A stretch of DNA of 64,000 bases from an uncultured Candidatus Saccharibacteria bacterium (GCA_964392315.1 CAYMOT010000002.1:41234-105233); one strand, 5' to 3'. Shown: positions 6,843-57,816, counted from the first letter of the stretch. Translations and numbers: made by a program. The notes: generated by a model from the letters alone, not told the origin.

Positions 6843-7457
6843 AGAGCAGGGAAGAGGGGAGAAGGACCCTATAAAACTCGGATAGTGTATAGCGGTGTAT
6901 ATTGAAAAGTAAGCATAAGTTATAAAACTATAGGTTATTAATAATTATAGGGTAATTGTCGTCATGTGGATAACTCAACTGCTAATAGGGGGTTAGTGGA
7001 GACGTTCTGAGAGGGGGTCCTTCCCTCGGTCCGAGAGGGGCTTTTTAGGCCGTTTTATACCAATAAAATGGAGCACTACACGAAATATTACAAAAAATAA
7101 AAACCTATTATTCCCGACTTGTGGGTGCCTGGCAAAAATTCATTGAAAAGCGGGAAATCGACATATAACGTCGCTAATCATACAATTCACGACGTTGTGA
7201 ACATTGCTTTTCTTCTACTCCCCCTCGCACGTGTCAACGAATAAATATGTATATATCCAAATAAACTAATAAGCTTATTAGTTTTTATTCCTCATTTGTG
7301 TATTGGTTTATTATAAATTTGAAATTTGTCATTTTTCCCCTCTCCCCCTCCCCTACCTCAAATAATAAACAAATCCGCCAGCTGGCGGAACAAATAAACT
7401 AATAAGCAAATTTATAAGAACATTTGCTTATTTGTAGTATTTGCTTATTATCTATAT

Positions 7458-8453
7458 ATGGCTCAAGGTCTGTCAGAGGCGTTCATTGACTTCATCGAAT
7501 ATTGTGAACTTGAGAGAGGTTTATCCCATCGTACCGCGGAAAAGTACCACTATCGTTTAATGCGGTTTTTGGATTGGCTTATGCAGGTGAATGGGATACA
7601 AACCCCGTCAATAAAGGATATTACGGAAGAAACAATTAAGGAATTCCGGCTGTATTTACATAGATTCGAAAGCGAACAAACCAAAAAGCAGTTAGCAGCA
7701 TCTACACAGCAACATTATCTGGTAGCACTTCGGGCATTTCTTAAATATCTCAAACGCAAGAAAGGCTTTGACCGTTTGTCTGCTGAGGATATTTTGCTGC
7801 CCAAGGCGCAGGGCAAGACGGTCACGTTTCTCAATGTTGAGCACCTTCAAAGCTTGTTTGCACAACCTGATACGCATGAATTGGCAGGAATGCGAGATCG
7901 CGCGATGCTTGAATTATTATTCAGCACCGGGTTGCGTGTCCAAGAATTGATTAATTTAAATAAAGAAGATATTCCTGAAAAAAGCTCCCAATTCACGGTT
8001 TTAGGCAAAGGTAACCGTTACCGTGTGGTATTTTTGAGTGACGTTGCACGCGATTGGGTGCAATTATACCTTTCACGCCGTATAGATGCATGGCTGCCTC
8101 TTTTTGTTAATACTCATGGTCTAAACCCGACGCGTTCTAAGGGGTCTAAAACCGACGAAAATAAATCAGACGTCCTAGATGACCCGGATGGTGAGAGATT
8201 TCGACTTACGGTTCGTTCTGTACAACGCATTATAAAAAAATATGCAAAAATGGCAGGGTTGAGTCAGGAAGTGACGCCGCATGTAATGCGTCATAGTTTT
8301 GCTACCGATTTGTTAACGCGTGGTGCGGATCTTCGATCTGTGCAGGAGCTTCTGGGGCATAAAAATGTCGCGACCACCCAAATCTACACGCATGTTACCA
8401 ATACACGGCTGCAGGAGGTACACAAAAAGTTTCATAGTACAATAGAGGAATAA
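7458..8453 (+). CDS. xerC: tyrosine site-specific recombinase, XerC/XerD family
   Basis: N-terminal SAM-like domain plus a catalytic domain with RVQEL, HVMRHSFATDLL and GHKNVATTQIYTHV (catalytic Tyr). Contains an atypical ~45-aa insertion (NTHGLNPTRSKGSKTDENKSDVLDDPDGERFRL). Confidence 0.8.
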   Translation: MAQGLSEAFIDFIEYCELERGLSHRTAEKYHYRLMRFLDWLMQVNGIQTPSIKDITEETIKEFRLYLHRFESEQTKKQLAASTQQHYLVALRAFLKYLKRKKGFDRLSAEDILLPKAQGKTVTFLNVEHLQSLFAQPDTHELAGMRDRAMLELLFSTGLRVQELINLNKEDIPEKSSQFTVLGKGNRYRVVFLSDVARDWVQLYLSRRIDAWLPLFVNTHGLNPTRSKGSKTDENKSDVLDDPDGERFRLTVRSVQRIIKKYAKMAGLSQEVTPHVMRHSFATDLLTRGADLRSVQELLGHKNVATTQIYTHVTNTRLQEVHKKFHSTIEE

Positions 8454-8467
8454 TAAATCAGTAACTT

Positions 8468-10795
8468 ATGAACTTTGTAACGAAGCTCGTACGCTATCCC
8501 ATTTGGTTTTATAAAGATGGGTTCCAGTTTTGGATCCGATTTTTTCCCAGGACAATAACGCTGATTGCGGACATGATGGGTATAAAACCTATTTTTAAGC
8601 ATTTTCTGTCGCCTTTCCGCAAAGATACATCACCCGTTGGGTATGGCATTGGAATTTTTATACGGCTTGTGTACGGTGGAGCGGGTATTATTGCCGTTGT
8701 TGTGGCCTTTTTTGGACTTATTGGTGCAATGTTGTTTTATTTCTCCATTCCACTCTTTGGGTTTTTGTTGATCATATCGATATCTGATTACACCTGGCCG
8801 AATATCTTAGGGGTGGTGATTTTGATAGCACCACTCGTGTTCTATATCTTTTTTGTAGCGTTAAGAAATCCCAGACTTACCAAAGACGGTTATCGAGTAG
8901 ACTGGGAGCGGGATGTGATGAAGCGGCTGCAGCTCAATCCTGAGGGTGCAATTGCCGCAAAAGAGCATGGTGATTTTGAGCAATTTTTAAAAGAGCGCGG
9001 ATTAACATTAGTTGATTATGAAATTGTTCGGCAGTGGGTTGCACATCAACGCTGGCTTCGTGAAAACTGGAAATACTGGCAGGATGGGCATTATAAGCGG
9101 TTTGTGGGTACAAACCTTGGGTGGGTTTCTGGGTTTATGCGTGAAGCGAAGTATTTTACAAAAAATTTGACGCAGGATCTTCCCCGCCGAAAAGTATACG
9201 AATGGCAAGGTTTGGATCAAATAATCGAGCGCATTTTGGCTGTTCTGGTGCGGGATACGCACAACAACGTGCTTCTGGTTGGTGATTCTGGGGTAGGGAA
9301 GACCTCGGTGGTATACCAAATCGCAAAAGTCATGAATGAGCGTGGTGGTTATCAAGTGATTGACCTAAATATCGCAGGTATGCTTGCGGGCAGTGGGCAT
9401 GAGGGTGAGTTTGAACGACGATTTATAAAAGCGATGCAGGAATTTCGCAATGCCGAGATTATTTTAGTAATTGAAGACATAGAAAGGCTGGTTTCTGGTG
9501 GAGTTGCACAATATTTTTACCCAGTTTTGGACGAGGCGGACTTCCCTATTATTGCTACAACAACTCCTAAAAGTTTGCGGGACGTGCTTGACCGTGAAAC
9601 GAAATTTTTAAATGCGTTTGAGAAAATTCCTGTAGAGGAACCAGATATTCCTGATGTCCTTTTTATATTGCAGGAGAAAGTCAAGGAATTTGAACGACGG
9701 TACGGTGTCTTTATCACGCATCAAGCACTCAAAGCGACCGTAGAAATCGCGGACAGATATATTGTTGATAAAGCATTCCCTTCTAAAGCCATTGATTTGC
9801 TCGATGAGGCGTGTGCATCAGTGGCAAACGGCAGATTTGAATCAGATAAGCAAAAAACAATTCAGGCAACACACATTGAACAAATGGTGAGCGAGATGAC
9901 CGGTGTCTCATTGGGTGAGGTGACCGAAAATGAGCAAGATAAGCTATTACAACTTGAGCAACTGTTGCATGGATTTATTATTGGCCAGGATGATGCAGTA
10001 CAGGAAATTGCTGCCGCGATGCGGCGTGCGCGTTCTGGACTCAAGTCCGACGAGCGCCCGATCGGGTCTTTCTTGTTTGTCGGTCCGACTGGTGTAGGTA
10101 AGACGCTTACTGCAAAGGTATTTGCTCAGGTATATTTTGGAGATCGCGAGAAAATGGTGCGGTTTGATATGAGTGAGTACTCAGAATTTGGGATGACGGA
10201 ACGATTTTTAGATCGAATTAGCGATCAAGTGCGTTCTACTCCTTTTACGGTACTACTTCTTGATGAGTTTGAAAAAGCGGACCAAAAGATTCATAACCTC
10301 TTTTTGCAGATATTGGAAGATGGCCGTGCTACTGACACACAAGGCAATGTCGTTGATTTCAAAAACACCGTTATTATCGCAACAAGCAATGCTCAAAATG
10401 TTGAGCAAGCTTTTAGTCCAGAATTGCGCAATCGCTTCGATGGGATCGTGACATATAAGCCGCTTAATCCCGATCAGATACTTGAGGTTGTCCGGCTTGA
10501 ATTAGGAGAATTGGGTAATAAGCTGTACGAGAAGGAAATTTCGGTTACCTTCTCCCCTACCCTCATTCAGGCGGTAGCGCAACTTGGATACGACCCCAAA
10601 ATGGGCGGACGACCTATACGCAGAGCTATTCAAGATAATATAGAGAATCCTCTTGCAGATGCACTGATCAAAGAAGACATTCACGCAGGTGATTCAATTT
10701 ATCTGGATTGGGAAAATGACCACCTGGTGATAAAAAATGAGGTTCCCGTCTCCCCTGCCCCTGACCAGCCAGCGGAGGGTGAGGTGCAGGTATAA
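8468..10795 (+). CDS. Clp/Hsp100-family double AAA+ ATPase (ClpB/ClpC-like) with an N-terminal multi-TM domain in place of the Clp N domain
   Basis: D1 Walker A LLVGDSGVGKTS. The D2 signature GQDDAVQEIAAAMRRARSGLKSDERPIGSFLFVGPTGVGKT...LLLDEFEKA...VIIATSN matches ClpB/ClpC D2. The first ~130 aa form 3-4 hydrophobic helices. Confidence 0.75.
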   Translation: MNFVTKLVRYPIWFYKDGFQFWIRFFPRTITLIADMMGIKPIFKHFLSPFRKDTSPVGYGIGIFIRLVYGGAGIIAVVVAFFGLIGAMLFYFSIPLFGFLLIISISDYTWPNILGVVILIAPLVFYIFFVALRNPRLTKDGYRVDWERDVMKRLQLNPEGAIAAKEHGDFEQFLKERGLTLVDYEIVRQWVAHQRWLRENWKYWQDGHYKRFVGTNLGWVSGFMREAKYFTKNLTQDLPRRKVYEWQGLDQIIERILAVLVRDTHNNVLLVGDSGVGKTSVVYQIAKVMNERGGYQVIDLNIAGMLAGSGHEGEFERRFIKAMQEFRNAEIILVIEDIERLVSGGVAQYFYPVLDEADFPIIATTTPKSLRDVLDRETKFLNAFEKIPVEEPDIPDVLFILQEKVKEFERRYGVFITHQALKATVEIADRYIVDKAFPSKAIDLLDEACASVANGRFESDKQKTIQATHIEQMVSEMTGVSLGEVTENEQDKLLQLEQLLHGFIIGQDDAVQEIAAAMRRARSGLKSDERPIGSFLFVGPTGVGKTLTAKVFAQVYFGDREKMVRFDMSEYSEFGMTERFLDRISDQVRSTPFTVLLLDEFEKADQKIHNLFLQILEDGRATDTQGNVVDFKNTVIIATSNAQNVEQAFSPELRNRFDGIVTYKPLNPDQILEVVRLELGELGNKLYEKEISVTFSPTLIQAVAQLGYDPKMGGRPIRRAIQDNIENPLADALIKEDIHAGDSIYLDWENDHLVIKNEVPVSPAPDQPAEGEVQV

Positions 10796-11027
10796 ACATA
10801 TGAATGAAAAAGGAGGGTATCCATTTCCAACAGACATTAAGGATAAGCAAGATGTAACTGAAGGAGCTTTTGCAATTGTTAAAGAGTTTTCTCATCATCC
10901 TGAATGGATTGTTGGTGGAGAAATGGCAAGTTTGAAGAAATGCCGCAGCTGTAGAGTATTATCTCGATGGGAGACTGAATCTTATTTTTGATAGTAGTTG
11001 AGATAAGAGTGAAAAATGGAAGTGAAA

Positions 11028-11190
11028 AGAAAAAGGCCGAAGGGTTCGACCTTCCGGCCTTGCGCGCGTATAGAAGTGGCAGCCAAATGGTGCGCCTGGG
11101 GCGAATGGGCTGGTCTCGCTGACCGCCTTGCGTCTGGCCCCGGCAGCTGTTGCCGCCACTCCTGGGGGTGTGAATCCCCCGTTACAGTTT
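11028..11190. ncRNA. candidate structured RNA (unclassified; SRP RNA, tmRNA fragment or other)
   Basis: A ~160-nt island of ~60% GC in an AT-rich genome. It has several hairpins (GGCCGAAGGGTTCGACCTTCCGGCC; GGGGGTGTGAATCCCCC, which looks like a T-arm). The six-frame ORFs across it are low-complexity Ala/Arg artefacts. Confidence 0.3.
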
Positions 11191-11402
11191 GTCAAATTTT
11201 TTCTTCACAGTCCTCCATGAAGAGGGTAAACATACTAGGTTTGAAATTTGATCTCCACTTGTGGCCAGCAAGTTTCAATTGATCTAGTACCCCTAATAAA
11301 CAACTGCACATACTATAAGACATTAGGTGTCAATGGTAATTTTCTGGAGTGTTTTTGTATGTTGACTAAACAGCTAACGGTGGTTTGTGTCAGTAAATTG
11401 TG

Positions 11403-14018
11403 TTATTCAGAGGTCTCTTCCTTCTCAATCGCAGCGGCTGAGGCGACGGTGTCATCTTTATCAAGCTTAATGATATGCACGCCCTGTGTATGGCGCCCAA
11501 GTACTGGTACCGTATTAAACGGCAAGCGGATAATTTGGCCTTGTGAAGAGACAATGAGAACGTCCTCTACACGCTCGGGGTGCAGTACGGAGGCAATTTG
11601 GAGCTTGCCTGTCTTTTCGGTAACCTTTGCGGTGAAAACTCCCTGGCCTCCCCTACCCTGTTGTTGGTATTCTGTCAGTGGTGTCGTCTTGCCATACCCT
11701 TTTTCACTTAATGTGAAGAGTACGTGTGTATGTGTGGGATGATTTCTTAGAACAGACATCTGGATAGTTTCATCACCTGCTTTTGTTCTAATTCCGATAA
11801 CACCTCGGGTAGCGCGGCCTGTTTCGCGGACATCCTCCTCTGAGAACCTAATGCATTTACCGTTTTGAGTTATGATGATGAGATCATCATTGCCTGTTGT
11901 GGGTTGTACTGAGAGGAGTTCGTCATCATCTGATAGAACAATTGCGATGAGCCCTGATTTTCTAATATTTTGATACTCTGGCAGTGCGGTGCGTTTAATA
12001 AACCCGTGTTTAGTGCCAAAGGCCAAATACTTATACTCATCCTTCGTATGATCGAGTCGTACAATACTGGTGACTTTTTCATTGCTCTCAAGTTGCAGAA
12101 GGTTAACTATTGCAGTTCCCCGTGCGGTGCGACTAGCCTCCGGGATTTCATACACTCGCGTCGTAAACACCCTACCCGTATTTGTAAAATACATCATAGT
12201 ATCAAGCGTTGAGGCAGTGATCATTTCTTGAACTACGTCCTCTTCCTTGAGATTTGACATTTTTACGCCTTTCCCTCCCCTACCCTGTGTTCTAAAACTC
12301 AATGGACTGACGCGCTTGATATAGCCGCTCTTCGAAAGCATCACGATGGTATCTTCGTTTTTGACTAGGTCATCATCGGTGAGTTCGCCAGGTGCGCGTT
12401 TAAAAATTTTGGTACGGCGCTCGTCCGCGTAGTTGTCACGCAATGCTATAAGCTCATCCTTGACAGTATTTAATATGTTCTGAGGAGAGGTAAGAGTTTG
12501 TTCAATTTTGCTGATAATGGCCATTATTTCAGCGAGTTCGTCAAGTATTTTTTGCCGTTCAAGGGCAGAGAGCTTTTTAAGTTGCATGTCCAAAATTGCG
12601 TTCGCCTGGATCTCACTAAGTCCAAATCGTTCCATCAACTGCGTGCGTGCCTCAGCGGTATCTTTACTTTTCCGGATTAACTCAATTATCTCGTCGAGAT
12701 TATCCAATGCGATCTTTAAGCCCTCTAAGATGTGTCCGCGATATTTGGCCTCGAGTAATTCGTTGGTTAGACGCCGTATCGTTACTATTTGACGGTGCTT
12801 GAGATATTCTATGAGCAGTGATTTCAATGGTAATGTTTTTGGTTCATCGTCTACGAGCGCGACCATGTTTGCATTAAATGCTCGTTGCATGCCTGAGTAT
12901 TTATACAGTTGATTGAGGGTTTTTTGAGGATTTGCTGATGATTTCAGATCTATCACAATCCGCATACCATCGCGGTCAGATTCATCACGTAAGTCAGAAA
13001 CATCGTCGATTTTGCCGTCTTTGTGAAGTTGTGCAATCTGCGCAACAAGCAATGCCTTGTTTTGCTGGAATGGGATTTCCGTAATGATAATGTGAAACTT
13101 ACCGTTTTTACCTTCTTCAATTTCTGCCTTCGCGCGCATCAGGATGCGACCGCGGCCTGTCGCATATGCCTGGATAATATCTTTTTGGTTATAAATGCTT
13201 CCACCGGTAGGAAAGTCTGGGCCAGGAATATGAGTTATAAGATCTTCAACGGTGAGTGGTGAGGAAATATCAAATTCATGAATCAATACCTTCGCCTGTT
13301 CCAGATTGAAGACGGGGTTATCTTGCAATAGAGCGGCAAATGCCGGAGTGAGGTATGGGACGTGGGTTGCTTCATCAGCATCTTTCGGCAAGATTTCCAT
13401 ACTATCTATCATCGCGACGAGTGCATTAACCGTTTCACCAAGGTTGTGTGGAGGAATTTTTGTGGCCATTCCAACCGCGATACCGTCCGTTCCGTTTACC
13501 ACAAGATTTGGTAGCGCAGCAGGTAAATACGTTGGTTCTTGTCGCGTTGCATCGAAGTTGTCGATGTAGTGGACGGTTGCTTTGTTTAGGTCTCGAAGCA
13601 TCTCCTCTGCAAACTTAGTAAGCCGCGCTTCGGTATATCGCATCGCTGCAGGTGGGTCTCCGTCAATGCTTCCAAAATTCCCTTGCCCGTCTACCAGCGT
13701 GTATCGCATGCCCCAGTCTTGCGCCATATTGACCAGTGTTGGGTAGACGATACTTTCTCCGTGTGGGTGATAATTGCCTGAGGTATCACCGGCGATTTTT
13801 GCACATTTTCTATATCCGCCGGTCGATGACAGGTTGAGGTCGTTCATTGCAACGAGTATGCGTCTTTGTGATGGTTTGAGCCCATCGCGCACGTCAGGTA
13901 ATGCACGGCCGACAATAACGCTCATCGCGTAGTCTTGGTAGTTGTCTTTCATTTCGGCGGTGATGGGTCGGTTCATCACCATTCCGTAGTCAGTTTTTAG
14001 AATTGTTTCATCGTTCAT
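11403..14018 (-). CDS. gyrA: DNA gyrase subunit A
   Basis: AMSVIVGRALPDVRDGLKPSQRRIL and YHPHGESIVY motifs. 871 aa with C-terminal beta-pinwheel repeats. Lies directly downstream of gyrB. Confidence 0.95.
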   Translation of the reverse strand: MNDETILKTDYGMVMNRPITAEMKDNYQDYAMSVIVGRALPDVRDGLKPSQRRILVAMNDLNLSSTGGYRKCAKIAGDTSGNYHPHGESIVYPTLVNMAQDWGMRYTLVDGQGNFGSIDGDPPAAMRYTEARLTKFAEEMLRDLNKATVHYIDNFDATRQEPTYLPAALPNLVVNGTDGIAVGMATKIPPHNLGETVNALVAMIDSMEILPKDADEATHVPYLTPAFAALLQDNPVFNLEQAKVLIHEFDISSPLTVEDLITHIPGPDFPTGGSIYNQKDIIQAYATGRGRILMRAKAEIEEGKNGKFHIIITEIPFQQNKALLVAQIAQLHKDGKIDDVSDLRDESDRDGMRIVIDLKSSANPQKTLNQLYKYSGMQRAFNANMVALVDDEPKTLPLKSLLIEYLKHRQIVTIRRLTNELLEAKYRGHILEGLKIALDNLDEIIELIRKSKDTAEARTQLMERFGLSEIQANAILDMQLKKLSALERQKILDELAEIMAIISKIEQTLTSPQNILNTVKDELIALRDNYADERRTKIFKRAPGELTDDDLVKNEDTIVMLSKSGYIKRVSPLSFRTQGRGGKGVKMSNLKEEDVVQEMITASTLDTMMYFTNTGRVFTTRVYEIPEASRTARGTAIVNLLQLESNEKVTSIVRLDHTKDEYKYLAFGTKHGFIKRTALPEYQNIRKSGLIAIVLSDDDELLSVQPTTGNDDLIIITQNGKCIRFSEEDVRETGRATRGVIGIRTKAGDETIQMSVLRNHPTHTHVLFTLSEKGYGKTTPLTEYQQQGRGGQGVFTAKVTEKTGKLQIASVLHPERVEDVLIVSSQGQIIRLPFNTVPVLGRHTQGVHIIKLDKDDTVASAAAIEKEETSE

Positions 14019-14120
14019 AAATGTGTCATGTCGCGCTTTTCCCCTCCGCGCGTCACCTATTCATCCACTCTAGGTATCCTTCAACATTTTTGCATAATAT
14101 TCACCTAAACTTTTAATCCT

Positions 14121-16070: not shown

Positions 16071-16232
16071 ACAGAAAAAATAAGCAAATAACCAAATAAA
16101 ACAGAAGTCATTTGCATATCTGCATATTGGATTATTTGCTTATTTTACAAACAAAATGACAACATTGCCATTGTACATTCGAAGACCATTGTAACACTTG
16201 GGTATGATCCGGGCAAAGAGAGCAGTGTTCCG

Positions 16233-16886: not shown

Positions 16887-17090
16887 GATAGGAAATAAAC
16901 AAATACAACAGATGCACATTAGTATTATTTGCGTATTGGTTGTTTACGTTACATTGACTCTCCTACGCCGAAAGTATAGCATGATTAAATAGACGAATAT
17001 GCAAATACTACCAATAAACAAATAAGCAAAATAAGTAGTACTTTGCATATTTATCATTTGCTTATTGGCTTATTTGTATATTAATTCCCA

Positions 17091-18809: not shown

Positions 18810-18829
18810 CTGTTTTCGCTGTACTGCCC

Positions 18830-19885: not shown

Positions 19886-19974
19886 TTAATAAACAAATAT
19901 GCATATAAACAAATATGCAAATAGGATGACATCTGCTTATTTGTAGAATTTGACTATTTGTTTATTTTCCCTTC

Positions 19975-21180: not shown

Positions 21181-21225
21181 CGATGTTACGGTTAGATATA
21201 GTAGAAGGGGGGTGAATTCGAGCAT

Positions 21226-21687
21226 ATGAAAAAAGCATTTAACAGAGGTTTTACGCTTATCGAGCTTTTGGTTGTTATCGCAGTATTGGGAATTTTGGCA
21301 GCCGTTGTATTGGTAGCGATTAACCCTCAAGCTCGTATTCAGGACGCCCGGAATTCCGGCGTAAGAGCCGACATTGGACAGATTGCGACTGCACTCGAAG
21401 CTTCCTTTACTGATAATGAAGGTGTATATCCAGCAGCTCTCACCGACCTACAAACTGAAGATCAACTGAAAAACATACCAGTTCCTCCAACAGGACGTAC
21501 CGGTTGTGATGAAACAGCAGCTTACGGATATCTAACCGCAGGAGGAGAAGCTGCAGTATGGGCTGATCTTGAGCCGTGCGATTCCGCAACAGAAACTAAC
21601 TACGTGTACTGGACAATTTGTGGTAAAGCAATGGAATCAAACGTACAGCCAGTAGCAAGTGAAATTACGGATACAAGTAACTGTTAG
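21226..21687 (+). CDS. pilA: type IV major pilin (prepilin with class III signal peptide)
   Basis: MKKAFNRG|FTLIELLVVIAVLGILAAVVLVAI: the canonical G/FTLIE prepilin cleavage and methylation motif. 153 aa with C-terminal cysteines. Confidence 0.85.
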   Translation: MKKAFNRGFTLIELLVVIAVLGILAAVVLVAINPQARIQDARNSGVRADIGQIATALEASFTDNEGVYPAALTDLQTEDQLKNIPVPPTGRTGCDETAAYGYLTAGGEAAVWADLEPCDSATETNYVYWTICGKAMESNVQPVASEITDTSNC

Positions 21688-21730
21688 TCGTTCGCTTTAG
21701 CTGTACAGTACTAGTACTGTAGTTATACAT

Positions 21731-21770
21731 AACAAGCGCGTGGAAACACGCGCTTTGTTATATTTCTACG
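21731..21770 (+). terminator. rho-independent terminator after the pilin gene
   Basis: AACAAGCGCGTG-GAAA-CACGCGCTTTGTT hairpin with a GAAA tetraloop, followed by TATATTTCT. It is preceded by a second perfect palindrome, TACAGTACTAGTACTGTA (21705-21722). Confidence 0.65.
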
Positions 21771-21808
21771 AAATATTCAGAAAGTTGTGGCTTGTTATAA
21801 TGTATGTC

Positions 21809-23821
21809 ATGAATCGTATCGCGGTTTTAATCCGATCGAACTTGCTCGAGTTACTCGTATTCTCGTTATCTCTCCTTCTTTATACTTATACTGCTCCACC
21901 GCACATTTTTTCAGGCGATAGTGCTGAACTCACAACGGCTGCAGCAACAGGAGGGTATGCCCACCCTCCAGGATATCCACTCTATTCACTTCTGGGGTCG
22001 ATCTGGATTAAGGTCTTTGCATTAGGGACGATTGGGTGGCGGATGAATATGTTTTCGGTGATCTGGGCTGCTTTATGTGTGGTGGTTATTTTTAAGCTTG
22101 TGTTTGCACTAACCAAGCATCGTATTGCTGCGGTGATAAGTGCGTGTACCGTGGTTGTAGCGAATTCATATTGGCTCTATGGGATCGTAGCCGAAGTGTT
22201 TTCGTTGCATGCTTTTTTGAATATGCTTCTATTGTATGCGGTTGTGCAGTTTTATTTGACAAAAAAATTGTACTACACCTACGTAGCAGCGATTGCTTTT
22301 TCATTGGAGATCGCACATCAACACCTTGTTATTTTGTCTGTTCCTGGAATCCTCGTGGTACTTCTAACAATGCGCTTTTGGAAGCACATATCAGCTAAGC
22401 ATCTTGTGGCACTTTTTGTTATTAGTGTATCTGGATTACTGTGGTATTTGTATCTTCCCCTATCAAAAGCACTCAGCGGCATATACTACTGGGGTTCCCC
22501 AGATACACTTTCTGGGGTTATCGACCTATTTTTACGCAGACAGTATGGCACATTTGATATTACCCACGGTGGGTCATCTTTAACTTTATTGCAAAGGCTC
22601 GAATATGTTAAAGCATTTCTCATGTTGTATGCTTTTAATTATGGAATACCGGGTTTATTGCTGACTTGTATAGGGATTGTGTACTTTTTGAAAAAGCGGA
22701 CTACCCTTGCAATTTCTTTTTTCCTTATCTTTATCGTGACGAGTATCATATTCCTTGTATATGCAGGTCTTGAGACAGTAAACATATTTCGATTGGGCAT
22801 GGTTGAAAAGTTTAGTGTTTTTCCTATCGCCGTTGGGGGAATTTTTATTGGCTATGGAGTATTGTGGGTGTCCCAGAACAAGTTTATACAGAGATATTCT
22901 GCTCTTTTAAAAAATAGGTCAATACCTTTTGTGATAGCGGGTCTTATGTTTGTATTACCCTTATATTTATTGGTGAATCATTGGGATACACTCAATCTTC
23001 GTAATTATTGGGAAGGGTGGTATTTGGGTGTTGATACCTTGATGTATGTCCCTGACTATTCTTTTGTAGGTGTCTCAGGGGATACGATGTCATTTAATAC
23101 GCGTTACATCAATGAAGTAGAGCGTCCACGTCGAAATATTATAATTACTAACTCCCCTCGTGAACCGGTCATTATACAAACTCGACGGTTGCTTGGTGAC
23201 TTGCAACTAGAACCGTCCGTGCCCATTGAAAATGAGCAATTTATCAATGAAATGATCAAGAAGTATCCTAAGGAGTTATCGTATTTCGTTCGCAGTCAGG
23301 TAACCGTTCCAAGTGGGTATGAGCTTGTTCCGGTTGGAGCATTGAACCAGGTGTTGCTTACAGATACCCTGCCCCCTAGAGAAGAGACGCTTGGGCAGCT
23401 GCGACATTTTCTGAATAATTCGTTTATGTTAAATCAATCGGGACTTGATACTTCTCTTCCTCCTCTAGCAGATAGCATTCGTGATGACTACGGTTTGATT
23501 TTGAACAATATTGGATGGTACTTGATACATGAACGAGAATATGAGGTTGCACGGGAAGTCTTCAAAAAAGGTAGTAGTATTGATCCGGGAAGACTCGAGC
23601 ATACACTTGGGTTTTATGCAATAGAGCGAGAAAAAGGTAATTGTCAAGCTGCTGGTGCTATCCTTGATGCATACGACGCAGACAGTGCTATCAAGCGCTT
23701 CACGATACTTCGTGAAAAAGCGGTTCTTTATCGGGTGTGCTACAAAGATGAGGAGAAGGTAACTGAATTGTTAAAAGAACTGGAATCAATACAATTACCT
23801 AGTGGCGCCTCTGGGACATAG
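21809..23821 (+). CDS. GT-C fold membrane glycosyltransferase (DUF2723 / PMT-like) with C-terminal TPR-like repeats
   Basis: FSGDSAELTTAAATGGYAHPPGYPLYSLLG matches the N-terminal catalytic-loop signature of DUF2723/PMT_2 (ArnT/PMT-like). More than 10 TM helices, then a soluble C-terminal repeat region. The ORF begins at 21740 inside the terminator, so I chose the ATG at 21809. Confidence 0.55.
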   Translation: MNRIAVLIRSNLLELLVFSLSLLLYTYTAPPHIFSGDSAELTTAAATGGYAHPPGYPLYSLLGSIWIKVFALGTIGWRMNMFSVIWAALCVVVIFKLVFALTKHRIAAVISACTVVVANSYWLYGIVAEVFSLHAFLNMLLLYAVVQFYLTKKLYYTYVAAIAFSLEIAHQHLVILSVPGILVVLLTMRFWKHISAKHLVALFVISVSGLLWYLYLPLSKALSGIYYWGSPDTLSGVIDLFLRRQYGTFDITHGGSSLTLLQRLEYVKAFLMLYAFNYGIPGLLLTCIGIVYFLKKRTTLAISFFLIFIVTSIIFLVYAGLETVNIFRLGMVEKFSVFPIAVGGIFIGYGVLWVSQNKFIQRYSALLKNRSIPFVIAGLMFVLPLYLLVNHWDTLNLRNYWEGWYLGVDTLMYVPDYSFVGVSGDTMSFNTRYINEVERPRRNIIITNSPREPVIIQTRRLLGDLQLEPSVPIENEQFINEMIKKYPKELSYFVRSQVTVPSGYELVPVGALNQVLLTDTLPPREETLGQLRHFLNNSFMLNQSGLDTSLPPLADSIRDDYGLILNNIGWYLIHEREYEVAREVFKKGSSIDPGRLEHTLGFYAIEREKGNCQAAGAILDAYDADSAIKRFTILREKAVLYRVCYKDEEKVTELLKELESIQLPSGASGT

Positions 23822-24023
23822 TGCGGTACTTTATAAAAAGGTACTAGAAGCTATTTCAAAACCCAACGATACGCTCGTAGAGATAGCAAAAAATGTTCGT
23901 CATCAAGGCGCACCAACAGATCATGATACGTTTCGGACATCGACGTTGATGCCAGCACATTTTTTGTATCTCACTTGCGTTGGTTGGTCAGGTTTTGGAA
24001 TAGCTTCTAGTATCGAAAACGCT

Positions 24024-24824
24024 ATGTTTATTATTTATTTAACTCTTATTGCACTCCTTGTTGGCTCATTTCTCAACATGCTCATAGATCGGTTACATAC
24101 CAAAGAGCAAATAATTGGCCTGTCACGCTCTCATTGTGATACGTGCGGACATATATTGGGAGTACGTGACCTTGTTCCGATAGTTTCGTGGCTTATGTTA
24201 AGAGGCAAATGTCGGTATTGTGGAGCACCTATTCCGGCACGAAATGCGTTAGTCGAGCTAGTCACTGCTGCCTTGGTTGTGTTGACCTATGTGGAATTAT
24301 TTGAGAGCAACTTATTGAGTATTGAGGAGATACCAGTCTTTGTTTTGGTTACCATCATTCTTTGTGCGCTTCTTGTGTTGCTGGTTTTTGACGTGTATCA
24401 CCAAATTCTCCCAGACAGTGTTATGGTTGTGGCATTACTTGCGACGATAGGGCTCCATGGTTTCTTTTTTGTGGAAAACGGCATCCTATTCGGAAATATC
24501 AGTTTCATGAATAGTATGCTTAGTGCGTTTGGGTCTGCACTCCCCTACTTCATACTTATTCTCATGACCAAAGGTGCCGGAATGGGTGGTGGGGATCTAA
24601 AATTAGCGTTTGTAATGGGGCTGTTGTTAGGGTATCCAAAGATATTTGTCGCACAGTACATTGCCTTTATTTTGGGAGGGATTGTCGCGATTGTCTTACT
24701 TATGGGGGGCAAAAAACGTTTCGGTCAGACAATGGCATTTGGTCCGTTTATGATCATAGGAACATGTTCTGTGTTGTTTTGGGGCGACGAAATTATTAAG
24801 AGATTCGCATATTGGATTCCTTAA
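24024..24824 (+). CDS. pilD: prepilin peptidase PilD (A24 family)
   Basis: LLVGSFLNMLIDRL, then the zinc-binding CDTCGH...CRYCG, GGGDLKL and polytopic TM helices. The ORF extends upstream to 23802; the start may instead be at 23949. Confidence 0.8.
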   Translation: MFIIYLTLIALLVGSFLNMLIDRLHTKEQIIGLSRSHCDTCGHILGVRDLVPIVSWLMLRGKCRYCGAPIPARNALVELVTAALVVLTYVELFESNLLSIEEIPVFVLVTIILCALLVLLVFDVYHQILPDSVMVVALLATIGLHGFFFVENGILFGNISFMNSMLSAFGSALPYFILILMTKGAGMGGGDLKLAFVMGLLLGYPKIFVAQYIAFILGGIVAIVLLMGGKKRFGQTMAFGPFMIIGTCSVLFWGDEIIKRFAYWIP

Positions 24825-24902
24825 CGAAAGGTATTGGTGGGCTTTAAGATGCCAGTAGAACGCTGCTTTTAACACGTCTTGCGTTATGATACGCTGTATC
24901 TA

Positions 24903-25433
24903 ATGAAAATATTTGGCTTGAATGATAAAGGTGTCACGATTATCGAACTCATTATTGTGACAGTTTTGATTGCTATCCTTGCAGCGTTTGCATTGCCGCA
25001 GTTTCAAAAGGTTGCTCTCCGGCAAGAATTTATTTCACAAGTGGATGCGGTAATGGATGATCTTCGGGTAGCACAAAGTTCGGCACGTAATTCTATTGAG
25101 GATAAGCAGGTAGATCCACTATTACCTCCTGTTCCGGTCGTCGCATATCAGTTTATCCCAATATTAGATGGTGAAGGGTATGAAATCAGGCAATTACTTG
25201 AAAATGGAAATACCCCGGTGATTGCAACAAACAACCTCGCCTTAAAAAGAATAGCTATAACAATGCCCGCTGAGGCATCAGGTGGATTCCAATTTAATGT
25301 GCCAAGCGGCAGAACGGCAGACCTCACTGGGGACCCATATTTAAATGTAAAATTTGACCTACAATTTCTGCATGCTGGACTTCAAGAAACGATTAGTGTT
25401 AGTATAGATCCAAGCGGAACTATATCTCGATGA
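24903..25433 (+). CDS. minor pilin / pseudopilin (prepilin-type N-terminus)
   Basis: MKIFGLNDKG|VTIIELIIVTVLIAILAAFALP: class III signal peptide with E at +5. Confidence 0.7.
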   Translation: MKIFGLNDKGVTIIELIIVTVLIAILAAFALPQFQKVALRQEFISQVDAVMDDLRVAQSSARNSIEDKQVDPLLPPVPVVAYQFIPILDGEGYEIRQLLENGNTPVIATNNLALKRIAITMPAEASGGFQFNVPSGRTADLTGDPYLNVKFDLQFLHAGLQETISVSIDPSGTISR

Positions 25434-25900
25434 AAAACCGTATTGCATCACTGCCACAACTTTTTAAGTCACAAGACGGACTCTCCCTAATTGAAATCCT
25501 CGTTTCTATTGTCTTGGTTGTCATTATTGGTACGGTTGCGGTAACCGTTGGTAGTGGTACGTTGCTTGATGCCCAAGCAAATCAAGACCGCGCTCGTGCG
25601 CTCTCTTACACCCTAGAAGCACTCGAGCAGGTTCGTTCGATTCGTGATACCGATCCTGACTCCTTGTTTGCTCTCCCAGATGGAACGTATGTATTGACAG
25701 AAACAGCCCTTAATCCCGTATCTGCATTTAACGAAGCTTCTCCCGAACCACATCTTATTCCAGATACCACTCGATATTACCGAGTTGTTGAGATATCGGG
25801 GGATTCGGAACGTAAAGAAGTGCATGTGGTGACCTATTTTAAAGAAAAGTCGGTATTCCGTTCTGTAGAAACCACGGCCTATCTCACTGATTGGCAATAA
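25430..25900 (+). CDS. minor pilin / pseudopilin
   Basis: G|LSLIEILVSIVLVVIIGTVAV N-terminal methylation motif. Overlaps the previous gene by 4 nt. Confidence 0.7.
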   Translation: MKNRIASLPQLFKSQDGLSLIEILVSIVLVVIIGTVAVTVGSGTLLDAQANQDRARALSYTLEALEQVRSIRDTDPDSLFALPDGTYVLTETALNPVSAFNEASPEPHLIPDTTRYYRVVEISGDSERKEVHVVTYFKEKSVFRSVETTAYLTDWQ

Positions 25901-25903
25901 GGT

Positions 25904-26518
25904 ATGCATTATGACACCCAAAAGTTTTTTAAAACAATTAGATCGCAGCAAGGGCTTACACTTGTTGAAATATTAGTAAGTACGGTCATTGTTTCGGCAG
26001 TGACTGTTGCACTTGTCACAATTTACCTAACTGCGTACAAAGGATACGATCGAAGCAACGCCATAAACCTCATGCAAGAAGAAGGTAATAGAATTATTTC
26101 CGTCATGACGCGAAGTATCCATGCAAGCACACTCGCAGAAAATACTGGCGCTAACTTGGTATTGACGCTTGATCCAGATAGTATTGAGTACAAGGAAAAT
26201 GGAGAATGTAAGACGGTGACATTCGTATTTGTACCTGGAGATGCAGTGAGCGATGGAACTATTAGGCAAGTATTTACCGGGTGCGCGGATCCAACACTGC
26301 TGGGAGGTTACGAAAATACATTGAGTAACCAAGGTAATACCACAGGTATTCATGTGGTGAATTTTTCTACATCAGTACGCGGAGGGGCACTTGATCGGAC
26401 ACAATTAGTAAGTATAGATTTTGTTCTTGCGCAGTCACGGAGCAGAAACGATCGAGGGAATTACGATGTTGAAGTTCCGTTTCAGACAAAAATCAGTACG
26501 AGAGGGTATGCAAGCTAA
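25904..26518 (+). CDS. minor pilin / pseudopilin (PilV/PilW-like)
   Basis: QQG|LTLVEILVSTVIVSAVTVALV prepilin motif. Confidence 0.7.
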   Translation: MHYDTQKFFKTIRSQQGLTLVEILVSTVIVSAVTVALVTIYLTAYKGYDRSNAINLMQEEGNRIISVMTRSIHASTLAENTGANLVLTLDPDSIEYKENGECKTVTFVFVPGDAVSDGTIRQVFTGCADPTLLGGYENTLSNQGNTTGIHVVNFSTSVRGGALDRTQLVSIDFVLAQSRSRNDRGNYDVEVPFQTKISTRGYAS

Positions 26519-26536
26519 AGGGCAGATCAAACTCTT

Positions 26537-27961
26537 GTGGTAATGTTAAAAAGTTCATACTATACGATAAGTAATATGTATAAAAATAAAAACATCTTTC
26601 TAAATCAGCAAGGTCAGGTACTTCTTCTTACCATACTTATTTCAGTCATTGTCATGACAATTGCTATTGCAGCCTCACGGAGAACAACGGTGGATGTAAA
26701 GCAACTCAATGCATCTACGGAATCTAATAGAGCACTATCAGCGGCAGAGGCAGGTGTGGAAGAGGCGCTACTTGCGTTAAAAAATGGTGTTACGCTTGCG
26801 AATTGTCATGATGAAGCAAGTTGTGGCATTGACTTGGGCACCGGTAAGGTCAAATCAATTGAAGTAGTAGAACAATCAATGCTATCGATGGCAAATGTTC
26901 CAACTGAGCAAACAATTCAAGTGCTCCTTCACGATTCAGCTGTTGACTTTAACGGTGTTGTTACGCTTCGGTGGGATGCGGGTACTTCGGTTGTCGTGAG
27001 TGTACTCTTACGAGATAGCAGTAACCCGCCTCGGTATGCGTTATATCGTGAAGCATACAATTGTGGGAACGGTACAGTGAATAATGGTTTTCAGGACATT
27101 TCTCCAACAAACGGCCAGTGTGAAATATCAGTAGACATCAATGACATTGAAACAAACCTGTATCCTGGCTATACTGCAATACTGATGCGTATCAGGATGA
27201 TGTACGATAGCTCAAGTATTTTTGTACAAGGCAATGTAGATTTACCAACACAAGCATTTAGTATCGATTCTACGGGAGATTCGGGCGACGCAGAACGAAC
27301 TATCCAGGCAACACGCACAAATGCTTCTTTGCCGAGTATCTTTGACTTTGCGCTCTTTAACGGCTCTTCAAACACGTTGCAAAATATACCAGGCGGAACG
27401 TCATGGTTTCAGTTTATGAATGGTGACGTTCACTCGTCAGGTAACGGTGGTATTAATGTTGACATTCCGGGTGGTTCTGTACTTTGTACGGGAGACATGG
27501 GATGTGTTGTTACTTCTGAGGATGGGATTGATACCGGTGGTGGTTCGATAAGTGATGAAAACTGGTTTGATAATGATTATGACGAGGACTTCAATATTGA
27601 GCGGTTTTCATATGATGCATTATTAACTCGACTATCGCCGGATATTCCCAACACCCATATAGGTAATAACTTAGCGAATGTGCAAGGGGTTTTACATCAG
27701 CCTTCGATAGTTCGTATCAAAGGTACGGGTGGAGTAGTGTCGCTCAATCAAGGAGAATTTGATAAATTGACCGATGAGCCCACCGTAGTGTTTGTGGGGA
27801 ATGAAGCAGGACAGGCCGATGTAAATTTGGAAATTACGGTGCCTGAATTTATCAATAAAAATGTTGTATTTATTGTCAGTGGTGACGTTGTGGTGTCGCC
27901 AGTAGTAAAGAAGCTAGAGGCTGCAGTTATCTTTGATGGGCTTATGACGGTTAAGAACTAG
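26537..27961 (+). CDS. large PilX-N-like minor pilin / putative pilus-associated adhesin
   Basis: N-terminal GQVLLLTILISVIVMTIAIAASRRT resembles the PilX N domain (no Glu at +5). It is followed by a 420-aa Gly/Asp/Thr/Asn-rich, likely beta-rich extracellular domain. Confidence 0.45.
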   Translation: MVMLKSSYYTISNMYKNKNIFLNQQGQVLLLTILISVIVMTIAIAASRRTTVDVKQLNASTESNRALSAAEAGVEEALLALKNGVTLANCHDEASCGIDLGTGKVKSIEVVEQSMLSMANVPTEQTIQVLLHDSAVDFNGVVTLRWDAGTSVVVSVLLRDSSNPPRYALYREAYNCGNGTVNNGFQDISPTNGQCEISVDINDIETNLYPGYTAILMRIRMMYDSSSIFVQGNVDLPTQAFSIDSTGDSGDAERTIQATRTNASLPSIFDFALFNGSSNTLQNIPGGTSWFQFMNGDVHSSGNGGINVDIPGGSVLCTGDMGCVVTSEDGIDTGGGSISDENWFDNDYDEDFNIERFSYDALLTRLSPDIPNTHIGNNLANVQGVLHQPSIVRIKGTGGVVSLNQGEFDKLTDEPTVVFVGNEAGQADVNLEITVPEFINKNVVFIVSGDVVVSPVVKKLEAAVIFDGLMTVKN

Positions 27962-27987
27962 GCAAAAAAACGTTCTTTTCTCCTGTC

Positions 27988-28016
27988 TTGACACCCCTAG
28001 CGCTATCCCCCATACT
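27988..28016 (+). promoter_or_regulatory. sigma70-like promoter for pilM (TTGACA-N17-CATACT) placed for a leaderless transcript
   Basis: TTGACA at 27988-27993, a 17-nt spacer, CATACT at 28011-28016. The pilM ATG at 28023 is 7 nt downstream with no SD. Confidence 0.45.
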
Positions 28017-28022
28017 GTATAT

Positions 28023-32987: not shown

Positions 32988-33046
32988 AGGTAGGAATAAT
33001 ATACAAATAAGAAAATATGCAAATAGAATTCTGAATTAAATAGTTA

Positions 33047-33508
33047 CTAGTTCCCTTGGTTACTATTTTCTACGTGTTCTTTTACGACGGTGCCGAGAAC
33101 GCCATTAACAAACTTGCTGCTCGCGTCGCTCCCAAATTCTTTCGCGAGTTCTACCGCCTCGTCTATTGTAACTTTTACTGGTGCCTCTTTGCGATACAGC
33201 AATTCATAAATTGCTATACGAAGGATATTTGCATCAATACGCGAGATCTGATCTACCGGCCATTCAGGCGCACACTTTCCAATAATACTGTCAATTGACT
33301 CCTTATTGCCGATAGCGCCCCGTATGAGATCTTCTGCCATGTCGTATTTAACATTTTTTTCGGCATATACCTCCTCCATGCTTTGAAATGTCTTTTGGAT
33401 GAGATCATCAATTGTAGGTTCGGAGTCATCTTTTCTGATGCTTAATTGGTATAGCGTTTGAAGTGCAACTTTGCGGGCGAGGTGTCGTGGGTCTTTATTG
33501 GTTTTCAT
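33047..33508 (-). CDS. nusB: transcription antitermination factor NusB
   Basis: [13 protein letters not shown]... NusB helical-fold signature, 153 aa. Confidence 0.85.
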
Positions 33509-50796: not shown

Positions 50797-50854
50797 ATCA
50801 TTATTATACCCTCATGAGATACAGACAGGAGTGTGATATAACCTGTGTATACGT

Positions 50855-57814: not shown

Positions 57815-57816
57815 CC

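What the first reader, a model, noticed from the sequence alone, without database searches (positions are those of the whole stretch)
7405..28022. Likely widespread leaderless or SD-independent initiation in the AT-rich part, contrasted with strong SDs in the GC-rich part
The start codons of xerC, gyrB, pilB, pilT, pilC and pilM are preceded by AT-rich promoter-like sequence with no GGAGG-like element. For pilM, a sigma70-like -10 sits 7 nt before the ATG. In the GC-rich block nearly every gene has AAGGAGG spaced 4-6 nt from the start. These two translation-initiation signatures in one window support different evolutionary origins for the two parts.
Basis: seen in the sequence. Interest (0 to 1): 0.5.

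Follow-up and report, generated by a model that had tools for sequence, protein, structure and literature searches.

The report
Two translation-start styles in one genome
In this uncultured WWE3 (candidate phyla radiation) bacterium, ordinary genes almost never carry a ribosome-binding (Shine-Dalgarno) motif and about half appear to be transcribed starting at the ATG itself, while an adjacent GC-rich gene block uses the motif at nearly every gene. The contrast is real, but both start styles are known kinds.

Summary
GyrB relatives place the window in candidate division WWE3 (CPR/Patescibacteria).

AT-rich part (1-57,000; GC 0.43):
- Only 3 of 51 genes have an SD-like duplex (dG <= -7 kcal/mol). 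That equals the coding-sequence background of 4.8%.
- 50 of 51 genes start with ATG.
- 19 of 36 transcription-unit-leading genes have a TANNNT -10 box 5-9 nt before the ATG (p = 3e-6).
- T precedes the ATG in 28 of 37 leading genes (rpmF added for this test). Both features fit leaderless mRNAs.

GC-rich block (57,100-64,000 and at least 10 kb beyond; GC3 0.67 against 0.39):
- 12 of 14 genes carry GGAGG-type SDs 3-10 nt upstream (background 6%, p = 2e-13).
- The block is not an assembly chimera. Independent runs span the junction, and it contains a host-type leaderless gene and a host-type promoter.
- A related species has the same block beside tig, with 22 of 22 genes SD-led.

A conserved SD before the pilin gene suggests the anti-SD is retained.

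"Different origins" is plausible but unproven. The block proteins are lineage-restricted orphans with no detectable donor. Leaderless starts are inferred from sequence only.

The parts
7446..7451 (+). -10 box TATTAT, 6 nt before the xerC-like ATG (7458). Two ATTTGCTTATT units lie at 7422-7449.
16077..16082 (-). -10 box TATTTT, 6 nt before the gyrB ATG (16070). ATTTG units lie at 16079-16097.
16892..16897 (-). TATTTC, 5 nt before the corrected holB-like start (16886, Met12 of the longest ORF), inside an ATTTGTTTATT unit.
17079..17084 (+). -10-like TATTAA, 6 nt before the pilB ATG (17091). TATATT lies at 8 nt.
18810..18829 (+). The 20-nt pilB-pilT gap. It has no SD and no -10 box, so pilT is an internal SD-independent gene, not a leaderless one.
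19963..19968 (+). -10 box TATTTT, 6 nt before the pilC ATG (19975).
21204..21215 (+). GAAGGGGGGTGA, a strong SD 10 nt before the pilin ATG (21226). It is one of only 3 SDs in the AT part and is conserved in relatives L098 and L099.
21796..21801 (+). TATAAT, 7 nt before the ATG of the PMT_2-like gene (21809).
27988..28016 (+). pilM promoter: TTGACA (27988-27993), 17-nt spacer, CATACT (28011-28016), then 6 nt to the ATG at 28023.
32996..33001 (-). TATTAT, 8 nt before the rnc ATG (32987).
33508..33740 (-). Uncalled rpmF (L32) gene at 33508-33729, with ATTTGTC-TATTTT (33735-33740) 5 nt before its ATG.
37561..37566 (-). TGGTACAAT extended -10, 7 nt before the recG ATG (37553).
39002..39068 (-). TACAAT (39002-39007), 6 nt before the tyrS ATG (38995), preceded by an array of 8-bp-period ATTTGCWT units (39034-39068).
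48719..48725 (-). AAGGTGG, an SD 11 nt before the thrS ATG (48707). A host gene with a leader and an SD.
48975..48980 (+). TACAAT, 8 nt before the phosphoglucomutase ATG (48989).
50803..50808 (-). TATAAT, 6 nt before the ATG of the 108-aa gene (50796).
55351..55356 (-). TGCTATAAT, 7 nt before the NUDIX ATG (55343).
56742..56747 (-). TATAAT, 9 nt before the trigger factor ATG (56732).
57100..64000 (.). GC-rich block (GC 0.50-0.67, GC3 0.67) holding 14 SD-led orphan genes. It continues at least 10 kb past the window end.
57295..57300 (+). SD AAGGAG, 4 nt before the ATG at 57305 (169 aa).
57904..57908 (+). SD GGAGG, 5 nt before the ATG at 57914 (179 aa).
58678..58682 (+). SD GGAGG, 5 nt before the ATG at 58688 (224-aa lipoprotein). 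This start is shared by all four homologues.
59450..59993 (-). Host-like gene inside the block (176 aa, GC 0.39, GC3 0.32) with no SD. TGCTACACT (-10 at 59988-59993) lies 7 nt before the ATG at 59980.
60420..60426 (-). SD AAGGAGG, 5 nt before the ATG at 60414.
60792..60797 (-). SD GAGGTG, 4 nt before the ATG at 60787.
61110..61115 (-). SD AAGGAG, 4 nt before the ATG at 61105.
61693..61698 (-). SD AGGAGG, 5 nt before the GTG at 61687.
63126..63132 (-). SD AAGGAGG, 6 nt before the ATG at 63119.
63406..63412 (-). SD AAGGAGG, 6 nt before the GTG at 63399.
63772..63776 (-). SD GGAGG, 10 nt before the GTG at 63761 (cold-shock-domain protein).

Best explanation
The window comes from a WWE3 (Katanobacteria, CPR/Patescibacteria) chromosome whose own genes start translation without Shine-Dalgarno pairing.

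For about half of the genes that lead a transcription unit, the promoter abuts the coding sequence. The -10 box (TATAAT-like, or the lineage-specific ATTTGnnTATTwT module) ends 5-9 nt before the ATG, most often 6-7 nt. RNA polymerase should therefore start at or within a few nucleotides of the A of the ATG, and the mRNA would be leaderless and read from its 5'-terminal AUG. This step is inferred; no transcription start has been mapped.

The other leading genes have short AT-rich leaders without an SD. Internal genes sit close behind the upstream gene: 11 of 15 have an overlap or a gap of at most 20 nt, and the range is -17 to +33 nt. Their start regions are weakly structured and A-rich. That fits translational coupling or structure-dependent SD-independent initiation (inferred).

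The SD mechanism is probably still available, because a few host genes use strong SDs. The pilin SD is conserved across relatives.

The adjacent GC-rich block is a compositionally distinct, lineage-restricted gene block, present at the same locus in a related species. Its genes all rely on canonical SDs. It is most likely of separate, possibly mobile-element or virus-like origin, and it has kept its own composition and start signals. That origin is inferred.
For: Shown:
- SD frequency is 3/51 in the host part (equal to background) against 12/14 in the block.
- 8 of 8 further genes in the region that continues past the window end are SD-led.
- 22 of 22 block genes are SD-led in the syntenic block of the relative L102, while tig there is AT-rich with a -10 box 8 nt from its ATG.
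- A TANNNT box lies 5-9 nt from the ATG in 19 of 36 leading genes. Other 5-nt spacer windows hold about 6.5 genes on average (p = 2.7e-6).
- The best-scoring -10 box falls at a 5-9 nt spacer in 12 of 32 genes (p = 8e-4).
- T occupies position -1 in 28 of 37 leading genes and G in none (p = 5e-7), against 2 of 14 block genes. This matches the pyrimidine(-1)/purine(+1) rule for transcription starts.
- 50 of 51 host genes start with ATG.
- Seven genes share ATTTGnnTATT at a fixed distance from the ATG.
- Relatives at 62-85% GyrB identity have an SD at only 3 of 46 genes.
- The pilin SD GAAGGGRGGTGAAT is conserved in three genomes while its flanks diverge.
- Start-region folding energy averages -4.1 kcal/mol for host internal genes and -9.2 for block genes.
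- GC3 is 0.39 in host genes and 0.67 in block genes.
- The junction is real. L083, from a different sequencing project, matches window 55319-57925 at 100%, and four other runs carry the host-like gene between GC-rich genes.

From the literature: Tsurumaki et al. 2022 (PMC9297842) report reduced detection of the anti-SD motif only for a Parcubacteria subgroup among the CPR lineages they compared.
Against: - No transcription start sites and no 16S rRNA of this organism were available, so both 'leaderless' and 'anti-SD retained' are inferences.
- A generic two-hexamer sigma-70 scan is not enriched in 7000-26999 (31 found, 40.6 expected). The promoter evidence therefore rests on the -10 box anchored to the ATG and on the lineage-specific motif.
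- In the more distant relatives the -10 box at 5-9 nt is not enriched (7 of 37). gyrB there appears to have a leader of about 12 nt. High leaderless usage may be limited to this species-level clade.
- Gene starts came from a gene caller that rewards SDs. This could inflate the block count, although background is 6% and orthologous starts agree.
- On origin: the block is conserved in position, has no integrase or repeat boundary that I could find, and has no detectable donor.
Confidence: 0.7

Rival explanations
1. Assembly chimera. The AT-rich and GC-rich parts belong to two different organisms joined by misassembly, so the two start signatures simply reflect two genomes.
For: There is an abrupt GC shift near 57 kb. 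The start-signal usage differs completely.
Against: - A 113-kb contig from run ERR2586217 has the same join; whether that run also underlies the window's own assembly is unknown.
- L083 from SRR7051044 spans tRNA-Val, tig and the first block gene at 100% identity.
- Four further runs carry the AT-rich, leaderless-type 176-aa gene embedded between GC-rich genes.
- A host-type ATTTG promoter cluster lies inside the GC-rich region.
- A related species has the same tig-block adjacency.
Confidence: 0.02
2. The SD contrast is a functional consequence of base composition, not a marker of origin. GC-rich mRNAs fold more strongly around the start and need an SD to recruit ribosomes, while AT-rich host mRNAs are open enough to start without one. 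On this view the block could be native.
For: - Start-region folding energy is -9.2 kcal/mol in the block against -4.1 for host internal genes (p = 2e-4).
- The block is syntenic in a relative and is driven by a host-type promoter.
- No donor was found.
- The idea that lack of local structure permits SD-less initiation is established knowledge from work on Bacteroidetes, cyanobacteria and plastids (my own recollection, not checked here).
Against: - This does not explain why the block is GC-rich in the first place (GC3 0.67 against 0.39).
- It does not explain why all its proteins are orphans.
- The one AT-rich gene inside the block switches back to the host style, which fits a mosaic of two sources equally well.
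Confidence: 0.2
3. Mis-annotated starts. Host genes really begin at other codons that do have SDs, and the promoter-like sequences are just AT-rich intergenic DNA.
For: Several automatic starts were wrong (holB-like, prepilin peptidase, one pseudopilin). AT-rich DNA gives TANNNT often by chance, about 18% per 5-nt window.
Against: - The gene caller favours SD-linked starts and still found none.
- The N-termini of GyrB, PilB, PilC, PilM, L32 and L35 match the family-typical beginnings.
- The -10 position peak (p = 2.7e-6) and T at -1 (p = 5e-7) are anchored to these ATGs.
- Corrected starts gained the promoter motif rather than an SD.
Confidence: 0.03
4. The host ribosome has a changed or lost anti-SD, or uses a non-SD ribosome-binding motif as Bacteroidetes do. 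Host genes would then have a ribosome-binding site that the canonical scan cannot see.
For: Host leaders and internal start regions are A/T-rich (A 0.34, T 0.27). Loss of the anti-SD is reported for some Parcubacteria (PMC9297842).
Against: - Canonical GGAGGTGA-type SDs precede pilin (conserved in relatives), thrS and a 63-aa gene.
- The whole block, transcribed from a host-type promoter, uses canonical SDs in two species.
- Position-specific information upstream of the ATG is low apart from position -1, so no alternative motif is evident. With 15 internal genes the power of this test is low.
Confidence: 0.07

Closest known systems
Leaderless-mRNA-rich bacterial genomes (GeneMarkS-2 'group C': Actinobacteria such as Mycobacterium tuberculosis, and Deinococcus deserti)
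   Same: - A Pribnow box lies 6-8 nt from the start codon of first genes in operons.
- Those genes have no SD and strongly prefer AUG.
- An estimated 25-60% of operons are leaderless (PMC6028130, PMC4007540, PMC3898074).
   Different: - Here the genome is an AT-rich, reduced CPR genome.
- Internal genes also lack SDs. In Actinobacteria, leadered and internal genes usually have them.
- Many promoters use a repeated ATTTGCWT module that those groups are not known to have.
- The paper searches found no description of leaderless or SD-poor initiation in Patescibacteria.
SD-poor translation in Bacteroidetes (GeneMarkS-2 'group B')
   Same: SD use is close to background across the genome, the anti-SD is (apparently) retained, and SDs are kept at a few special genes. 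The Bacteroidetes details are from my own knowledge and were not tested here.
   Different: - Bacteroidetes mRNAs are leadered, with an A-rich non-SD motif and -33 TTTG / -7 TAnnTTTG promoters.
- Here the -10 box abuts the ATG, and the repeated motif is ATTTGnnTATT, which does not fit TAnnTTTG.
Genomic islands recognised by atypical composition and start signals
   Same: A sharp GC and GC3 shift, orphan genes and a tRNA gene 1.2 kb away.
   Different: - No integrase or flanking repeats were found.
- tig lies between the tRNA and the block.
- The block is conserved at the same locus in a related species, and no donor can be detected.

Membership tests
Leaderless-rich bacterial genome (group C type) | -10 (Pribnow) box at about 6-10 nt from the start codon of unit-leading genes, more often than chance | tested here: met
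   19 of 36 genes have TANNNT at a 5-9 nt spacer, against about 6.5 of 36 in control windows (p = 2.7e-6). The best -10 box is at 5-9 nt in 12 of 32 genes (p = 8e-4).
Leaderless-rich bacterial genome (group C type) | No SD upstream of those genes | tested here: met
   3 of 51 host genes have dG <= -7 kcal/mol, equal to the 4.8% background.
Leaderless-rich bacterial genome (group C type) | AUG strongly preferred as start codon | tested here: met
   50 of 51 host genes start with ATG. The exception is infC (GTG/ATT).
Leaderless-rich bacterial genome (group C type) | Mapped transcription start coincides with the start codon | not testable with these tools
   No transcriptome data were available. 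The only indirect support is T at -1 and A at +1 in 28 of 37 genes.
Leaderless-rich bacterial genome (group C type) | Trait shared by the lineage | tested here: inconclusive
   Relatives are SD-poor (3 of 46 genes), but a -10 box at 5-9 nt occurs in only 7 of 37 leading genes. Close relative L098 keeps the module at gyrB, pilB and pilC, while L099 and L100 appear to have leaders of about 12 nt.
Canonical SD-led initiation (GC-rich block) | Purine-rich motif complementary to CCUCC, 4-12 nt upstream of the start, above background | tested here: met
   12 of 14 genes against a 6% background (p = 1.9e-13). 8 of 8 further genes beyond the window. 22 of 22 in L102.
Canonical SD-led initiation (GC-rich block) | 16S rRNA 3' tail carries the anti-SD CCUCC | not testable with these tools
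   No rRNA lies in the window or the fetched loci. Indirect support comes from the conserved pilin SD and the literature (PMC9297842).
Horizontally acquired genomic island | Atypical base composition and codon usage | tested here: met
   GC 0.56 against 0.43, and GC3 0.67 against 0.39.
Horizontally acquired genomic island | Integrase and/or direct repeats at a tRNA-linked boundary | tested here: inconclusive
   No integrase domain was hit among the 18 of the 22 listed block proteins scanned against Pfam. tRNA-Val is separated from the block by tig. The far boundary was not reached, and no repeat search was run.
Horizontally acquired genomic island | Patchy presence among relatives | tested here: not met
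   The one relative whose tig locus could be read (L102) has the same block in the same place. Only one comparison was possible.
Horizontally acquired genomic island | Homologues in an identifiable donor lineage or mobile element | tested here: not met
   - The 179-aa protein matches 1 cluster among 1.84 billion representatives.
- The lipoprotein has 3 homologues. The one whose genomic context was read (P0147) lies in the same kind of block next to tig.
- There were no PADLOC hits. Apart from one cold-shock domain (Pfam) and one family of unknown function (PHROG), there were no Pfam or PHROG hits either.
- There was no blastn match to phages or plasmids.
Bacteroidetes-type SD-independent initiation | TAnnTTTG -7 promoter element and leadered mRNAs with an A-rich non-SD motif | tested here: not met
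   The recurrent motif is ATTTGnnTATT, ending 5-8 nt from the ATG. No positional motif appears between -20 and -2.

The most novel reading that the evidence does not exclude
The GC-rich block is a self-contained genetic element specific to this WWE3 clade.

It would consist of one host-type promoter, a conserved structured RNA of about 650 nt, and a run of a dozen or more short SD-led orphan genes, all conserved next to tig in two species.

Its genes would be deliberately kept on a different start mechanism (30S binding through the SD) from the rest of the genome (leaderless or SD-independent). The cell, or the element itself, could then switch the whole block on or off by changing the state of the ribosome or the initiation factors.
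Probability: 0.1. Interest if true: 0.75.

Novelty: new member of a known kind. Interest (0 to 1): 0.45.

Why it matters
If transcript mapping confirms it, this would be a clear case of a CPR/Patescibacteria lineage whose own genes have essentially given up Shine-Dalgarno initiation and rely largely on leaderless mRNAs.

That has three practical consequences:
- Gene callers choose start codons partly from SD motifs. Several automatic starts here were wrong, and rpmF was missed.
- It informs the design of expression constructs for these hard-to-manipulate bacteria.
- It bears on how reduced ribosomes initiate translation.

The within-genome contrast also gives a simple marker, SD presence, for compositionally foreign or separately regulated gene blocks in such genomes.

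Tried and rejected
The protein is too conserved, so 80 loci came back from every phylum at 50-55% identity and none was a close relative. Taxonomy came instead from source names in the protein search.
2. A generic sigma-70 two-hexamer scan of 7000-26999 showed no enrichment (31 found, 40.6 expected). The E. coli -35/-10 consensus is a poor model here.
3. Position-by-position information content upstream of the ATG is weak, except at position -1, because the -10 box position shifts by about 2 nt between genes.
4. The block was searched against phages and plasmids by blastn with no match.
5. Pfam, PHROG and PADLOC scans of block proteins (10, 10 and 6 of the 14 window genes, plus 8 and 4 downstream ones for Pfam and PADLOC) gave only a cold-shock domain and one family of unknown function.
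6. The structured RNA was searched against Rfam with no hit. Exact-pattern scans of IMG/VR and the JGI metagenomes also found nothing.
7. A protein-pattern scan of the JGI metagenomes with the lipoprotein alignment found no relative.
8. I tried to walk further along the source contig through the UPF0182 protein. Only a 4-kb contig came back.
9. Searching papers for the run accessions found nothing.
10. Rfam scans of the long intergenic regions 6800-7460 and 10950-11420 found nothing.
11. The chimera and mis-annotated-start explanations were considered and rejected (see the rival explanations).

Full report
**What the window is**

The first 57 kb have GC of about 0.43. From about 57.1 kb to the end, GC is patchy at 0.50-0.67.

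The AT-rich part carries housekeeping genes:
- gyrB and gyrA
- pheS, pheT, thrS and tyrS
- rplT, rpmI, infC, murA, tig, recG, rnc and nusB
- a type IV pilus cluster: pilB, pilT, pilC, a pilin, pseudopilins, and pilM, pilN, pilO

The only Rfam family found is tRNA-Val at 55491-55567, on the minus strand.

The closest named GyrB relatives are from candidate division WWE3, at 77% and 61% identity. More distant ones are other Patescibacteria. I therefore treat the window as a WWE3 (Katanobacteria, CPR) chromosome.

**Checking the observation**

I used the gene calls that come with independent public assemblies of the same organism.

I corrected three starts where relatives or signal peptides showed the caller was wrong: the holB-like gene, the prepilin peptidase and one pseudopilin. 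I added the uncalled rpmI gene. I also found an uncalled rpmF gene, which enters only the 37-gene promoter analysis.

Each start was scored by the best duplex between positions -20..-2 and the canonical anti-SD.

| Measure | Host part | GC-rich block |
|---|---|---|
| Genes with dG <= -7 kcal/mol | 3 of 51 | 12 of 14 |
| Background in the same coding sequences | 4.8% | 6.0% |
| Binomial p against background | 0.74 | 1.9e-13 |

- Host against block: Mann-Whitney p = 1e-7.
- The SD cores in the block are AAGGAGG, AGGAGG, GGAGG, AAGGAG or GAGGTG at 3-10 nt.

**Is the AT part leaderless?**

- Of 36 host genes that lead a transcription unit (upstream gap of at least 40 nt, or a divergent neighbour), 19 have a TANNNT hexamer ending 5-9 nt before the ATG.
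- The peak is at 6-7 nt.
- Other 5-nt spacer windows in the same upstream regions hold 3-12 genes, about 6.5 on average (p = 2.7e-6).
- Taking only the best-scoring -10 box per gene, 12 of 32 fall at 5-9 nt and 19 of 32 at 5-12 nt.
- With rpmF added to the 36 leading genes (37 in all), the base just before the ATG is T in 28 and never G (background T 0.35; p = 5e-7). It is T in only 2 of 14 block genes.

A pyrimidine at -1 and a purine at +1 is the known preference at bacterial transcription starts. This fits the A of the ATG being the first transcribed base. Host start codons are ATG in 50 of 51 genes, as expected when the 5'-terminal AUG is the main start signal.

Two promoter flavours occur.
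- **Ordinary.** TTGACA, 17 nt, then a TAnAAT-like box. Examples are pilM, recG, the phosphoglucomutase gene, the NUDIX gene and tig.
- **Lineage-specific.** A repeated unit, ATTTGCWT. ATTTGNNTATT occurs 43 times against 1.4 expected, mostly in intergenic DNA, at spacings of 8, 16-17 or 24 nt.

In xerC, gyrB, holB, pilB, pilC, rnc and rpmF, the start-proximal unit places ATTTG at -18 to -21 and a TATTWT box 5-8 nt from the ATG.

These are sequence inferences; no transcript ends were available.

The fifteen internal genes have gaps of -17 to +33 nt and no SD, apart from one 63-aa gene. Their start regions are weakly structured and A-rich, with a mean folding energy of -4.1 kcal/mol. That fits coupling or structure-dependent SD-independent initiation. 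pilT belongs to this class, not to the leaderless class.

**Is the SD mechanism lost?**

Probably not.
- The pilin gene has GAAGGGGGGTGA 10 nt upstream.
- The same element (GAAGGGRGGTGAAT) is conserved in two relatives while the flanks diverge.
- thrS has AAGGTGG upstream.
- A published CPR ribosome survey reports reduced anti-SD detection only for a Parcubacteria subgroup (PMC9297842).

The organism's 16S rRNA itself could not be examined.

**Relatives**

Syntenic loci from genomes at 85%, 76% and 62% GyrB identity have SDs at 3 of 46 genes. SD-poverty is therefore lineage-wide.

The -10 box abutting the ATG and the ATTTG module are kept in the closest relative, L098. In the two more distant ones gyrB seems to have a leader of about 12 nt, and the 5-9 nt signal is not enriched (7 of 37). 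High leaderless use may be limited to this clade.

**The GC-rich block**

It is not a chimera.
- A 113-kb contig from run ERR2586217 shows the same join; whether that run also underlies the window's own assembly is unknown.
- A contig from an unrelated project covers window 55319-57925 at 100% identity.
- Four further runs carry block segments.

The block is a mosaic.
- A 176-aa gene (59450-59980; GC 0.39, GC3 0.32) has no SD and has TGCTACACT 7 nt before its ATG, which is the host style.
- A host-type ATTTG promoter cluster lies just past the window end.

The SD-led, GC-rich region continues for at least 10 kb more. All eight further genes there have SDs, including a very divergent UPF0182 protein.

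Block proteins are orphans.
- The only family matches are one cold-shock domain and one phage family of unknown function.
- There are no phage or plasmid DNA matches.
- The 179-aa protein has one related cluster among 1.84 billion representatives.

The lipoprotein has three homologues at 52-56% identity. One of them sits in a related genome in the same arrangement next to tig. There, 22 of 22 block genes are SD-led at GC 0.45-0.63, while tig is AT-rich and has a -10 box 8 nt from its ATG.

The block is therefore an old or repeatedly acquired, lineage-restricted element that keeps its own composition and start signals. Its ultimate origin is unresolved. An alternative is that SDs are needed because GC-rich start regions fold more strongly (-9.2 against -4.1 kcal/mol).

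**Comparison with what is known**

Leaderless-rich bacterial genomes are well described, for example Actinobacteria and Deinococcus (GeneMarkS-2 group C). SD-poor genomes that retain the anti-SD are also known, for example Bacteroidetes.

Full-text searches found no paper describing either trait in Patescibacteria.

I class the finding as a new member of a known kind. Its most interesting aspect is the sharp and evolutionarily persistent contrast between two start regimes within one genome.

**Verdict**

- Confidence in the SD dichotomy is very high. Confidence in leaderless starts for about half of the leading genes is about 0.7. Confidence in a separate origin for the block is about 0.5.
- Interest is moderate.

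Noticed in passing
Just outside the window: window minus strand about 64,265-64,960 (L090 8790-9500 +; L102 8957-9605 -): A GC-rich non-coding stretch of about 650 nt lies between a host-type ATTTG promoter cluster and the first gene of the block's minus-strand gene run.
- It folds far better than shuffles (z = -8.7).
- It is much better conserved between two species than the neighbouring proteins.
- The two-species consensus fold has 168 pairs, 17 with compensatory double changes and none broken.
- There is no Rfam match and no exact-pattern hit in IMG/VR or the JGI metagenomes.

It is a candidate new large structured RNA or structured leader.
   Followed up: partly
Most long intergenic regions of 1-57,000, e.g. 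7364-7449, 16079-16144, 16996-17082, 19888-19966, 37738-37764, 39034-39087, 48865-48883, 53092-53152: Arrays of an 8-bp-period unit, ATTTGCWT.
- ATTTGNNTATT occurs 43 times against 1.4 expected.
- The arrays are often paired in inverted orientation.
- Some units point away from any annotated gene.
- The arrays are present in the closest relative (L098) but not in the more distant ones.

They could be a promoter module or the binding array of an unknown factor.
   Followed up: partly
window 55568-55584 (-), upstream of tRNA-Val (55491-55567): The same ATTTGCT-TATTCT module ends only 4 nt before the mature 5' end of tRNA-Val. The tRNA may therefore be transcribed with almost no 5' leader.
   Followed up: no
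window 33508-33729 (-): An uncalled ribosomal protein L32 gene (rpmF, 73 aa, [18 protein letters not shown]...) has a leaderless-type promoter. The public gene calls list nothing here.
   Followed up: yes
window 33754-33773, 45328-45346, 55602-55620; also 7375-7388 and 56764-56777: Near-identical GC hairpins (GCCTGCCTGCGCAGGCAGGC and CCGCCAGCTGGCGG types) recur between genes and are flanked by ATTTG units. They could be terminators or a small dispersed repeat.
   Followed up: no
window 11025-11195 (-): A GC-rich stretch of 170 nt lies downstream of gyrA in the AT part. It forms a long hairpin followed by a terminator-like stem and a U run (z = -3.3 on the minus strand). There is no Rfam match even at E <= 1. 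It may be a small RNA.
   Followed up: partly
window 46848-46850 (-), infC start: An in-frame ATT codon sits directly before the called GTG start of infC. This recalls the unusual AUU start used for IF3 autoregulation in other bacteria.
   Followed up: no
window 61558-62608: In two other sequencing runs (L085, L086) this part of the block is only about 83% identical, while the flanking block DNA is over 99% identical. It is a locally hypervariable or exchanged segment.
   Followed up: no
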